From Hormiphora californensis (lineage: Eukaryota; Animalia; Ctenophora), in the NCBI GenBank assembly GCA_020137815.1, contig CM035359.1, positions 1,364,001-1,428,000 on the forward strand: a stretch of 64,000 nucleotides of DNA, in the 5' to 3' direction. Of the stretch, positions 1,044-52,300 are shown in pieces. How positions within the stretch are numbered: position 1 is the first letter of the stretch; each line of letters opens with the position of its first letter. The position numbers and the translations under genes were made by a program. Under the pieces are notes generated by a model that saw only the letters and a program-made list of their open reading frames with translations, ran no database searches and was not told where the DNA came from.

Positions 1044-4000
1044 ATGATGACTATGACTATTTTAAACCTTCTCTTCCTAACCATCCTGATAAACATTGCA
1101 AAAGGTAAATGAATAGAAATCATATTTTTCGAATAAATTATTTTCGGAAATTTATAATCAGTTTTTATTATCTGTCACAGATCGTAAAATGCTTTTCCCA
1201 CAGCAGACCATGGAAATCAGTATCACCAGATTGGGGTTAAACCCTTGGGATGTTGGATCCGAGACCAGCAGAATAAGCCTGCTATCTCTTCTTTTGAAAA
1301 ACAGAACCCACATGTCATGGATTCTTACTGGCTACGAACAGATCCTGTTATGGTAAGTTACTAATACCATAGTATACGTAATTGTGGGTTACTTGTGGTT
1401 AATAAAATATCATTAATGAGGCTAATAAAGTTGGAAACTACTAAGTTAAACACGCTAAATGATCTCGTACCCTCTTCAGGCATGTGCTAAAGCTGCCGCA
1501 GCGGAAGGATTTAACGTGTTTGCCGTTTCGAACCGAGGGTATTCCCGTGGAGGTTTGCCCATGGGGGGAGAGTGCTTCACCTCCTGTTCTGCGGCCAAGG
1601 ATTTCGCTCAGTATGGGAAATGGAAAGCAAGATGCGCTGAAGGGACTGGAGGACTTCTCTCCATGGATGTGTATAGTCTTGATGGTACGTCCACAAATAC
1701 TGCATCCGTTCGATATGATACTGTTCCGTTCAAAGATAATAATTATAGGGATGTCATTGAACCTTAAAATCACAAATCTTCCAGTGAAGGTTTTTTAACA
1801 TCCCAAATCTTGCAGTGAAAACTTCCTAAAGTCCCAAATCTTCCAGTGAAAACTTCCTAAAGTCCCAAATCTTCCAGTGAAAACTTCCTAAAGTCCCAAA
1901 TCTTCCAGCGAAAACTTCCTAAAGTCCCAAATCTTACAGCGAAAACTTCCTAAAGTCCCAAATCTTCCAGTGAAAACTTCCCAAAGTCCCAAATCTTCCA
2001 GTGAAAACTTCCCAAAGTCCCAAATCTTCCAGTGAAGACTTTCTAACATCCCAAATCTTCCAGTGACTACTCATCTCGGGTGCATCAAGAACAGTCTTCG
2101 TGGGTACGCCATCCCCGACATGGAGGGGAGTCACACGGCGTTATTCGGACAACCACACCACCGGGAACATGCTATTGAAAAATGTGCCGCCGTAGCCCGC
2201 AGCAAGGGTAAGTGTTGGTGATCTGCACCATGTACTTTTTGGGTGATGTGATTTCCACCATGTTCTTTTTGGGAGATGCAAAACAACCGATTCTAATTCA
2301 AGTCCTTGGAAAGACTGACGGGTTTTTAATTTAACACCATTATCCAGGATACACAGTATTCGGAATTACCAAGGGAGGACGATGCCTGGCGAGTGGTGAT
2401 GCTTACAAGAGGTACACTGCACTTAGCTCCTCATCCGGTTCTGGAATCAACTGCGAAGAGGGAAAAGGTACGTTTTATTTTACACTCGACAAAATCAATC
2501 CTGAGCTACCCTTGCGGTTGATTTTTACATGAGTCTTGAGCCCCACGTCTTGTCCACTACATACTTTGTTTGGTATCTTAATCCGCATTCACCTTTAGAA
2601 TATCTTTAGTATGCCTCATCGTTAGATGCACTACCGAGCTAGGTATCTGTATTCTGCATTAGAAACATGACACGCTCACATGATCACATATAATACTATA
2701 ATGATCATGATTCATAATATGTATATGATCATAAGCCTGAAAAATGCCTTTGGTACACATTCCGGAAAAAGTTACGGTATATGACATGTTTGAGTCTGCC
2801 CCTGTCTAGATTCCCTCGATCTCTCTCGCACTCTCTCTATATATCATCATTCACGGATATATATTTTTTATCCAGTATTATGCAGACAACCAAAGCAATT
2901 CTCCGGCGTGTCACATGAGCTGGGTGATGCAGTAACCCTCGTGCTCCTATTATATAATCATCCAACTCAGGGCACAGCCAGGAATTCGAAAATATACGCA
3001 TAATATTATAACATAATGGCATTCTTAGAAGAGCTTTGGGAATGTAAGATGCTCGAGAATTTCTAGCTATGATGTCATGAAAGAAAATCGAATAGAAAAA
3101 AGGGGAAAAGGAAACTAGCAAATGTGTATATGTAATTAAATGCCAAAATCGAGTTTTTGTAACAAGGCTTCCCATTTCCATTAACAGTATATAGCCTACT
3201 GTGGGTTAAATTTGCCCACACGCATATAAAACGGTATCTGTAGGCCATAGTTTTCATTCAATCTGCCTAGCATTTCTTAAGTCTTACTTTTTGACAATTA
3301 TCTCTCTGATGATATGAATAATGAAAACCAACTGTATAAGGCGATTGATTTATTAGCGATTTGTCAAGCGTTACTCATGGTGGTGACATCTCATTGGCTG
3401 AAAAACACTCACATGGGAAGGGTTCACATGTCATAAATCGAACACGTGATATGGTTTCACCACCTGTCATCGTCCAATGGTCTGTAGTGCACTACCCATG
3501 TGATAGGGGCCAGGATGGGGAATGGGGGATGCACTGATCACGTGTACTAAGAGGTGTTGACATCTTGCCCTGTCACGTGATAACTGGTGCTCTATAGTGC
3601 ATATTTGAGTGAGCTGTATAAAATGCAAGCAAACCCCATTAAGATCACTGATTATACAAATTATCATTTGTTCATGTGAGAGACAAGTGTTATGGCTATC
3701 GTTAGATATAAGTTTTAGATTGAAAAGTCAATCCAAAAGCGAAATATGGGCCTTAGAGTGTCGTGTGGGCAATATTAACCCACAATAGGCGGCTCTTATA
3801 CCCCTGCGGCTGGAAACTGTATAGGCACTCCCTTTATCCCATCATCTTCATTAAATTTGTACGTTCTTAGCAGTCTTTTAATCTAAATGCTAACAAGATC
3901 ATCATCTCAAATATATGCTAACATAGCCCAAATCATGTAAACCATTATTATTTTAGCTAATGCGTTACCCAAAGATGTTTCAGGTTCAGAACACTCTATC

Positions 4001-49300: not shown

Positions 49301-52300
49301 AGTTGAACTTGCTTAACATGGCGTTCACGAAGTATTCCAGCTGGGGTCCAAGCATTCGCTTGAGGGCCAAGTCAGTGGGTTCAGTTGACTTGTAAACCTA
49401 GAAAACAGGGTAATGTAAATTCCAAGTAAGACATGTGTCAGCACATCGTTCAATTTTGACTTTTGTTCGAACTCTCTCTTGCACTTTTAACTTTATTTTA
49501 CAAATCAACATTTTTAGAGTCCATACCTTCTCGTAAGTCAGAAGGAGAATTTTCGTAGCTTTAATGAACTGTTCCAGCTGGAGCCTCCTGTGCTGTGACA
49601 CCGTGTCAGGGGCGGAACTGCTGCTTTGACCACTCTGGGGAATGAGGGGTGGGGTTAGGGGCGGAACTGCTGCTCTGACCACTTTTGGGGAGATGAGGGA
49701 TGGGGTTATGGGTAGAAGTAGTGCTCTGACCACTCTGGGGGAGATGAGGGATGGGGTTATGGGTGGAAGTAGTGCTCTGATCACTCTGGGGGAGATGAGG
49801 GATGGGGTTATGGGTGGAAGTAGTGCTGGGGTCGGAGTGAACTGAGAAGAAGAAAGGAGCATTCCGAATTCTGTTATAATATTCTAAATCATGTACATAA
49901 ATTCCATAATTAGGCTATTTCCACACCTTCTATAAACCTTCATTTCCCAAATTGGGGAAAAAAAATTATTTTTCATGAATAGAGGATTTGAAGGCATCGT
50001 GTCAACCAAGGGTTTGAGGGTAGTTTCCCTCTTATAGCGCGCCCTCTTTGGCGAAATTTGGGGGACGTGATGTAAGTGGGGATATATCTCTCTGTCTATA
50101 TCTATGGAGAGAGAAAAGAAGGGCGAAAAGGGGAAAGGAGGAGGAAGGAGGAAGAAAGAAGGAGGAACGAGGAGAAAAGAGGAGGCGGAGAAAAGGGAGA
50201 GAGAAGAGAGGGGAGAGAGAGGGGGACGCCCCGGGCGGAGACCCGAGAGAGAGGAAGATAGGGGAAAGCGAGAAGAGAGGAAGAGAGAGGAGGAGGTTAA
50301 CATAGTAAGGAAAAACTGCCAAAAATAAGCCAAAAAGGCAACTAATTGTTATAAAAGCGAAACCACTCTACCCGACTAATTTTGATACGCTGAATCCAAT
50401 GAGCAACTTACGCAAGCGCTCAGAGGTGGAGAAAGTGTCCTAATTGGCCATAATTGGGTACCTGTATTTTCAGCCTGAGGCCAAAACCATAAGTGCCCTT
50501 AAAATAGGAGTAAAGACAAATCTGAGGGCACTAAAGTGATCAGCGTCCTCGCATTAGTGGGGGTAGGTGCCGGAATTAAGTCTCTATCTCATCTGGTTAA
50601 TTGAATAATTGGATAATTAGATATGCGCATAACCGTATTTTGGCTGTATGGCTATAGCCACTTAGGAATGGTTTAGAGACGTTTCATTGGTGCCATTTTG
50701 TAGGCAATGGCCAAGTTATGGGGGGTCGACGTCGGACTTCTAAGCTCTATCTTCAACCGTTTAGCCGTTATTTGGCTTTAAAGGTACTCAAAATCGGGCT
50801 TTTTACCGTTTTTCGCTCATTTTGAGTACCTTTAAAGCCAAATAACGGCTAAACGGTTGAAGATAGAGCTTAGAAGTCCGACGTCGACCCCCCATAACTT
50901 GGCCATTGCCTACAAAATGGCACCAATGAAACGTCTCTAAACCATTCCTAAGTGGCTATAGCCATACAGCCAAAATACGGTTATGCGCATATCTAATTAT
51001 CCAATTATTCAATTAACCAAATGAGATAGAGACTTAATTCCGGCACCTACCCCCACTAATGCGAGGACGCTGATCACTTTAGTGCCCTCAGATTTGTCTT
51101 TACTCCTATTTTAAGGGCACTTATGGTTTTGGCCTCAGGCTGAAAATACAGGTACCCAATTATGGCCAATTAGGACACTTTCTCCACCTCTGAGCGCTTG
51201 CGTAAGTTGCTCATTGGATTCAGCGTATCAAAATTAGTCGGGTAGAGTGGTTTTCGCTTTTATAACAATTAGTTGCCTAAATTTTTCAGTTTTTCCTCTC
51301 CTAGCAAGTAATATGTCTCGCACATTATATATTTATATGCATATGATATGTGTCTTTGTCACAAAATTGAGTTTTGACGGTAGGTATCATGCAAAAGTTA
51401 CTATCATATTCAGCCTTCACCGACGATCATATCTGCCCTCTCAAATATGCAAGATTAGTATCTGTTTCATTGTTCCCTTGCTATAAAGCCAGCGAGCTGT
51501 ATCCAATATAGTATTCACCAAGCTGCAGCAGTTAGCCTTTAAAATGAATAGTTATTCCAATACTGTGCGCAACTAATCTATCCCTCTCTGCTTATATAAT
51601 ACGTTTCTCTCTCTCTCTCTCTCTCTCTCTCTCTCTCTCTCTCTCTCTCTCTCTCTCTCTCTCTCTCTCTCTCTCTCTCTCTCTCTCTCTCTCTCTCTCA
51701 GCACAGGATTGTACCGAAAGCACTCTTCTCCTCTCTATATTTCTCATTAATAATGCATGGCTCTTATCACTGGTTAGTAACCAGTGTGTAGTGGTTACTC
51801 ATGCCCTAACCTAGGTTGGCATGAGCTGTAACATCCATCCTTCCATGATTCCGGTCTATCTCTCACTCACTTTCTCTTTTTTAGTTTTCATTTATTTTTT
51901 CGTTTATTACTTTACATTCCCTACATTATGCAGGGAATGAAGGCTACAGATCTGCTATTGGAGAAGAGGATTTTGCAGTTTTCACCCTACTTTAAAGTTT
52001 TATAAAGCCTCGGCCTCCCTATTATATATAACTCGCCAAGCGTCCACACTCCACGTGCTATGATCTCAGTATAGAGTCGTTTGAACGATTAATGATCTTT
52101 GATATAATTGGAGAGAGTGAGAGAGAGAGAGAGAGAGAGAGAGAGAGAGAGAGAGAGAGAGAGAGAGAGAGAAAACCTGGTCAAGAAAAGTAAGGAGATG
52201 AAACTAAAATTAACTTTGTTTGAACATCATTTGTCTATACATATAACTATATGTACTAATCGTTAGATATGTAAGTAATAAGACTATTTAGATTGGCTAG

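What the first reader, a model, noticed from the sequence alone, without database searches (positions are those of the whole stretch)
1774..49830. Recurring tandem repeats that multiply 3' splice sites in four different genes
In four genes the intronic minisatellite unit is the intron/exon junction itself: 31 bp x10 (1774-2066), ~110 bp x7 (5770-6575), 40 bp x3 (13074-13184) and ~51 bp x4 (49620-49830). In each, the most distal copy gives the expected protein. Four cases in 64 kb suggests a lineage-wide mutational process targeting acceptors, and a splicing mode (exon definition or recursive splicing) able to skip near-identical upstream AGs. The arrays could tune expression by copy number or seed new introns. 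The mechanism is inference.
Basis: partly seen in the sequence, partly recalled or inferred. Interest (0 to 1): 0.75.

Follow-up and report, generated by a model that had tools for sequence, protein, structure and literature searches.

The report
Repeated splice acceptors in comb-jelly introns
In a comb-jelly genome, short tandem repeats have copied the end of an intron and its splice signal several times in three genes (possibly a fourth); only the last copy matches related species' proteins, so the spare copies are likely skipped, a harmless oddity already known from lancelets, chickens and humans.

Summary
The four arrays are real and at the stated places. The window is ctenophore DNA. In arrays 1, 3 and 4 the unit is intron end + AG + 3-27 exon bases, and only the last copy gives the junction seen in orthologs; nearly every upstream copy leads to a stop. 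Array 2 is ambiguous: a unique in-frame AG just beyond it may be the real acceptor. Arrays 2 and 3 lie in paralogous segments that may be one gene. Junction copies occur at 4 of 48 acceptors and 0 of 48 donors (p about 0.12; 0.6-1.9 expected under random placement), in a window chosen for them, so acceptor targeting is unproven. No copy is an AG|GT ratchet point, so recursive splicing is unsupported. In arrays 1 and 4 only the last copy keeps a CTAAC branch-point motif, which likely explains its use; array 3's three acceptors are identical over 24 bases and need exon definition or leak to NMD. No RNA of this species could be laid. These are 'mirages' (amphioxus), akin to chicken exon stuttering and human CBS 844ins68. 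The scan noted the same kind before, in this genome and in annelid, urchin and other genomes.

The parts
1765..2066 (+). Array 1: 31-bp unit = 28 intron bases ending in AG + 3 exon bases; 10 AGs, exon starts possible at 1785...2033 (decoys) and 2064 (real)
   Evidence: all 9 decoys reach a stop within the extended exon; CTAAC at -18 only in the last copy, TTAAC in the copy at 1816, central copies have CTAAA/CCAAA plus an extra AG
2064..2207 (+). Exon 3 of gene A (two-repeat, probably secreted protein of no Pfam family; exons modelled 1204-4281)
   Evidence: intact ORF; aligns without indel at the junction to P0013; no Pfam hit for its three exons tested
5770..6576 (-). Array 2: about 110-bp unit, 7 copies of a C-rich tract + CAG + 40 following bases, plus a 5' partial copy without AG
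   Evidence: all three frames are open across it
5692..5808 (-). Terminal exon of segment B2 (ends CTII, a CaaX-like motif; label recalled); starts at 5808 (repeated AG) or 5763 (unique AG)
   Evidence: acceptor matrix 10.0 vs 8.0 bits, branch-point motif present only for 5763
13074..13185 (-). Array 3: 40-bp unit = intron end + AG + 10-15 exon bases; decoy exon starts 13163 and 13123, real 13083; the three acceptors are identical over the last 24 intron bases but one
   Evidence: both decoys give premature stops
9556..15943 (-). Gene B1 (low-complexity + coiled-coil, ends CTIM); 10 exons modelled, array 3 in its intron 8 (13084-13300)
   Evidence: intact ORF; homologs P0008 (Bolinopsis microptera) and P0009
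49622..49827 (-). Array 4: 51-bp unit (last 49) = intron end + AG + 9-27 exon bases; intact decoys at 49785 and 49734, AG lost at 49683, real exon start 49634
   Evidence: CTAAC at -21 only in the last copy, decoys have ATAAC
49841..49843 (-). AG upstream of array 4 that would add 69 in-frame codons (exon start 49841)
   Evidence: no such insertion in the 7 relatives that span the junction (P0001, P0003-P0006, L001, L002)
37376..59781 (-). TPR gene (nephrocystin-3-like TPR C-terminus, P-loop N-terminus); 21 exons, array 4 in intron 9 (49635-52473)
   Evidence: Mnemiopsis ortholog P0001; exon map

Best explanation
Arrays 1, 3 and 4 are tandem copies of an intron-exon boundary ('mirages'), likely made by ordinary local duplication and unequal crossing-over and likely tolerated because the copy next to the intact exon stays the one that is spliced. 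Shown: the units contain AG plus an exon stub; only the last copy restores the ortholog junction; 13 of 13 intact decoys inside these three arrays give a premature stop as assembled. Inferred steps: (1) a 31-51 bp duplication falls across the acceptor in a genome whose short introns are rich in minisatellites; (2) it expands, with inner copies homogenised; (3) selection keeps only alleles in which the last copy wins: in arrays 1 and 4 because decoys have lost the branch-point motif or the AG, in array 3 because only the last copy is followed by a full exon (exon definition, perhaps helped by G runs as in CBS); (4) leak transcripts are removed by NMD. Array 2 is either a fourth case or a purely intronic repeat that stops just short of the acceptor.
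For: Anatomy. Ortholog junctions. Frame outcomes and branch-point motifs (YTNAY at -12..-40 in 29 of 44 other acceptors, 40% of 1360 intronic AGs). Ten complex minisatellites touch the 48 introns, 5 of them starting 7-32 bases from a splice site without copying it, so arrays form readily near both ends. Variants are shared by neighbouring copies and edge copies of array 1 resemble each other, as described for amphioxus mirages (PMC3087553, passages). Distal use of a duplicated acceptor is documented for CBS 844ins68 (PMC2630376, PMC1802585, passages).
Against: All junction-copying arrays here are at acceptors, none at donors (4 of 48 vs 0 of 48), and 4 exceeds the 0.6-1.9 expected. Array 3's acceptors cannot be told apart by their own sequence, the first would give a 138-base intron of ordinary size (median 213), and classic globin duplications used the proximal copy in one study (PMC1557585 Discussion). 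One decoy of array 1 (1816) keeps TTAAC at -18. The branch-point motif is a weak discriminator (66% vs 40%) from 44 training sites.
Confidence: 0.68

Rival explanations
1. Ctenophore genomes have a real acceptor-side bias: duplications arise preferentially at 3' splice sites, or donor-spanning ones are purged while acceptor-spanning ones survive.
For: 4 of 48 vs 0 of 48; p=0.002 for 4 or more if arrays fall anywhere in 25 kb of intron; arrays next to donors (2218, 40169, 40999, 63603 and two microsatellites) all begin just after the GT.
Against: Fisher p=0.12, or 0.24 with 3 cases; p=0.04-0.29 when long, transposon-filled introns are capped at 150-250 bases; the window was selected for this pattern; an unchecked scan note (e1-10417509) reports exon-end copies elsewhere in this genome without my knowing the side.
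Confidence: 0.15
2. The arrays are leaky competing acceptors that lower or tune gene output through NMD (arrays 1, 3) or add proline-rich insertions (arrays 2, 4), in proportion to copy number.
For: Identical acceptors in array 3; array 2 lies before a terminal exon, has open frames, and 2 of 6 upstream copies keep the CTII end; array 4 has an in-frame upstream AG.
Against: No insertion in 7 relatives at the array-4 junction; decoys show decay of splice signals rather than conservation; amphioxus mirages do not disturb splicing by RT-PCR (PMC3087553, PMC3902484 passages).
Confidence: 0.11
3. The arrays are assembly stutter.
For: The assembly appears to carry small indel errors: frame breaks in four coding regions (cathepsin near 18960, nested gene near 12360, TPR exon 5, gene F near 63500).
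Against: Copies differ in a patterned way (7 of 10, 6 of 7, 3 of 3 and 3 of 3 distinct; variants shared by neighbours), which stutter would not give.
Confidence: 0.04
4. The arrays are skipped by recursive splicing.
For: None found.
Against: The bases after the copied AG are TG/CG, AA, GA and AG, never GT; GT sites inside the units score at most 4.2 bits against a median of 9.1 for the 48 donors.
Confidence: 0.02

Closest known systems
Amphioxus 'mirages' (Adh3, troponin C, globins BflGb6/BflGb9, PGBD5; PMC3087553, PMC3902484, passages read)
   Same: Minisatellite-like tandem copies of an intron-exon boundary; BflGb6 is acceptor-side (intron 3' end + exon 5' part); units 10-160 bp; many copies keep AG; inner copies homogenised; several loci per genome; intron-gain model already proposed.
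   Different: Other phylum (I found no ctenophore report in searches of an incomplete library); here only acceptor-side cases in the window; correct splicing and allelic length variation are shown in amphioxus, not here.
Human CBS 844ins68 (PMC2630376, PMC1802585, passages; Romano 2002 not held)
   Same: Duplicated intron/exon acceptor junction, distal site used; G runs between the sites promote it, and array 3 has a GGG in each unit.
   Different: Single 68-bp duplication, not an expanded array; mechanism tested there; arrays 1 and 4 lack G runs and differ instead at the branch-point motif.
Chicken dot-chromosome 'exon stuttering' (bioRxiv 10.1101/2025.09.16.676548, passages)
   Same: Exon edges copied 1-44 times into the adjacent intron; 3.4% of dot-chromosome introns, which lies within the interval here (3 of 48, 1-17%).
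   Different: GC-rich avian microchromosomes and longer spans (median 1.7 kb); the term 'splicing' does not occur in that text.
Human F7 intron 7 37-bp VNTR (PMC1557585, abstract and Discussion)
   Same: Minisatellite whose edge unit is the authentic splice junction; the other copies stay silent.
   Different: Donor side.

Membership tests
Mirage / exon-boundary minisatellite | Tandem unit spans an intron-exon boundary (arrays 1, 3, 4) | tested here: met
   with ortholog junctions
Mirage / exon-boundary minisatellite | Tandem unit spans an intron-exon boundary (array 2) | tested here: inconclusive
   two in-frame candidate acceptors, no homolog for this exon
Mirage / exon-boundary minisatellite | Many but not all copies keep the splice dinucleotide | tested here: met
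   10 of 10, 3 of 3, 3 of 4 AGs intact in arrays 1, 3, 4
Mirage / exon-boundary minisatellite | Concerted evolution of inner copies, edges excluded | tested here: met
   array 1: copies 1816 and 2064 share a type that the seven inner copies do not; arrays 3 and 4 too short to say
Mirage / exon-boundary minisatellite | mRNA is spliced normally | not testable with these tools
   the one listed run does not hold these genes
Mirage / exon-boundary minisatellite | Copy number varies between haplotypes | not testable with these tools
Recursive splice (ratchet) sites | AG directly followed by a GT donor | tested here: not met
CBS 844ins68-type distal acceptor choice | G runs between the duplicated acceptors | tested here: inconclusive
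   a GGG in each unit of array 3 and a long G run upstream of its first acceptor; none in arrays 1, 2, 4 on the transcript strand; function untested

The most novel reading that the evidence does not exclude
In ctenophores several per cent of all 3' splice sites, and far fewer donors, sit in junction-copying arrays, and the arrays record selection on branch points: decoys lose CTAAC while the last copy keeps it. The genome would then be a natural library of thousands of competing, near-identical acceptors that reveals how a short-intron, early-branching animal chooses its 3' splice sites.
Probability: 0.18. Interest if true: 0.55.

Novelty: new member of a known kind. Interest (0 to 1): 0.27.

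Why it matters
As it stands it extends a known oddity to comb jellies and warns annotators that such arrays mislead exon calls. It would matter more if a genome-wide count showed an acceptor bias, or if RNA showed that the last of three identical acceptors (array 3) wins in a genome with a median intron near 200 bases: that would be direct evidence for exon definition in ctenophores.

Tried and rejected
RNA: no RNA holder listed for 1100-2700; the single same-label run X1 was laid on 48850-50100 and 12975-14500 and gave only one 35-base and one 31-base non-exonic match: no evidence either way. The metagenome scan gave 2 spliced transcripts of relatives and no genomic contig, so the arrays could not be sought in other individuals or species. 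A protein search with B1 exon 6 found nothing. No homolog resolves array 2's acceptor; C-terminal length (56 or 41 residues against 45 and 51 in B1 and P0009) does not discriminate. Considered and downgraded: array 4 as a purely coding 17-residue repeat (open frame from 49841, but no insertion in 7 relatives); recursive splicing; assembly stutter. An echo screen of all 48 acceptors and 48 donors found no further junction copies; two donor flags were microsatellites with no exon base. Romano 2002 could not be read; Reed and Maniatis 1986 on exon sequence and proximity is recalled only and not relied on. Supplements (e.g. the BflGb6 alignment) were not opened and may bear on whether amphioxus decoys also lose branch points.

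Full report
Organism and genes. The window is ctenophore DNA: an exon near array 4 matches a Mnemiopsis leidyi protein at 88% and an exon near array 3 a Bolinopsis microptera protein at 75%. I modelled 48 GT-AG introns in eight gene models, median 213 bases; models A, B1 and TPR rest on homologs, the others on frame and splice signals only. Four coding regions show frame breaks, so single-base details of the assembly are uncertain.

Observation. All four arrays exist. Array 1 (31 bp, 10 AGs, + strand) copies 28 intron bases and 3 exon bases; all 9 upstream AGs lead to a stop and the last gives the junction of homolog P0013 without indel. Array 3 (40 bp, 3 AGs, - strand) copies the intron end and 10-15 exon bases; both upstream AGs give stops, and the last gives LLQRK|NSGLEQ as in P0009 and an intact ORF to a CTIM end. 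Array 4 (51 bp, - strand) has two intact decoys, one copy with AG changed to AA, and a last copy whose junction QVK|SGQSS matches the 7 relatives that span it, two of them spliced transcripts. An AG upstream of the array is in frame and would add 69 codons; the last unit is 49 rather than 51 bases, and if that were an assembly error the two decoys would be in frame instead. Array 2 (98-121 bp, 7 AGs) is unresolved: the repeated AG (5808) scores 10.0 bits but has no branch-point motif, while a unique AG 45 bases further (5763) scores 8.0 and has CTCAT at -26; both are in frame. In the second case the array is wholly intronic. The segments holding arrays 2 and 3 are paralogous and in tandem on one strand; the first exon of B2 has a weak acceptor (2.6 bits) in the phase needed to splice from B1, so they may be one gene or two.

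More than chance? Two screens over all 48 acceptors and 48 donors found these four and no other junction copies (array 4 was caught by the exon-edge alignment only; two donor flags were microsatellites without exon bases). Ten complex minisatellites touch the introns (period 20 or more and dinucleotide entropy 2.7 or more; low-complexity and shorter-period arrays were dropped). Random placement predicts 0.62 acceptor-spanning arrays over all intron DNA, 1.5-1.9 if introns are capped at 250 or 150 bases; P(4 or more) is 0.002, 0.04, 0.10 and P(3 or more) 0.02, 0.16, 0.29; acceptors versus donors give Fisher p=0.12 or 0.24. The window was flagged for this pattern, so these values overstate the case. 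The excess is suggestive, not established.

Mechanism. Shown: no copied junction is AG|GT, so recursive splicing lacks its motif. In array 1 only the last copy has CTAAC at -18; one edge copy has TTAAC, and the inner copies read CTAAA or CCAAA followed by an extra AG. In array 4 only the last copy has CTAAC at -21; the decoys have ATAAC or no AG. The motif YTNAY occurs at 29 of 44 other acceptors and 40% of 1360 intronic AGs, so it is a modest signal and the branch points themselves are predicted. In array 3 the three acceptors score the same (8.5 bits, same CTCAC); the choice must come from the full exon downstream or from G runs in and before the unit, or the allele leaks to NMD. Inferred: duplication by slippage, expansion by unequal exchange (variants shared by neighbouring copies), and survival only of alleles in which the last copy wins. 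The nearest decoys of arrays 3 and 4 each differ from the live exon at one position, both silent (2 of 2), in line with scan note e1-10417509; in array 2, 2 of 5 variant positions in the putative exon part are silent, so this is not a test.

Known relatives. Amphioxus 'mirages' are the same anatomy, including acceptor-side arrays, several loci per genome, unaffected splicing by RT-PCR and an intron-gain model (PMC3087553 and PMC3902484, passages). Chicken exon stuttering affects 190 of 5,572 dot-chromosome introns (bioRxiv 2025.09.16.676548, passages). Human CBS 844ins68 shows distal use of a duplicated acceptor, promoted by G runs (PMC2630376 and PMC1802585, passages). F7 IVS7 is the donor-side case; its Discussion notes that engineered globin duplications gave opposite results in two studies (PMC1557585, abstract and Discussion). 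Searches listed no ctenophore report, but the library is incomplete. High indel heterozygosity in non-coding DNA, nested genes and trans-splicing are reported for Hormiphora (PMC8527503, passages); whether the window is that species I did not determine. The lead to the mirage papers came from earlier scan notes, which describe the same kind in annelid, urchin and other genomes; they are unchecked and not counted as support.

Verdict. A real, partly overstated observation: three firm and one doubtful case of a known kind, new for the phylum as far as I could search. The branch-point asymmetry and the identical acceptors of array 3 are the parts worth a follow-up. Interest 0.27.

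Noticed in passing
window 5692-7450 and 9556-15943 (-): Two paralogous coiled-coil C-terminal segments, each ending in a CaaX-like motif (CTII, CTIM), lie in tandem; they may be alternative 3' ends of one gene or a partial duplicate.
   Followed up: partly
window about 18960, 12360, 55266-55412, 63500: Frame breaks in a cathepsin-like gene, a nested gene, TPR exon 5 and a beta-lactamase-like gene (family labels recalled); probably assembly indels.
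   Followed up: partly
window 2218, 6977, 37812, 38163, 40169, 40999, 63603: Tandem repeats that begin 3-32 bases after a donor but never include the GT, e.g. a 35-bp x16 array in the first intron of a small nested gene.
   Followed up: partly
window 10984-12494 (+) and 40095-41466 (+): Two genes nested antisense in introns of B1 and of the TPR gene; nesting is common in ctenophores (PMC8527503).
   Followed up: partly
window about 44353-48824: Element with long terminal inverted repeats and an inner palindrome near 46200-47190 appears inserted into a 22-bp minisatellite in TPR intron 12 (read by eye).
   Followed up: no
window about 7590-9150 and 50350-51270: Long near-palindromic stretches (read by eye), probably foldback transposons.
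   Followed up: no
window 53138-53843 (-): Coding 30-bp repeat (RPATQEK-type) in TPR exon 8, shared in kind with Mnemiopsis and variable in length among relatives.
   Followed up: no
protein P0008: The Bolinopsis gene model ends exactly at the donor of the intron that holds array 3 here (…LMHRK), which may reflect intron retention or a difficult acceptor in that species too.
   Followed up: no
window about 55970-56110 (-): An exon-like open stretch with good splice signals inside TPR intron 4 that does not belong to the TPR protein.
   Followed up: no
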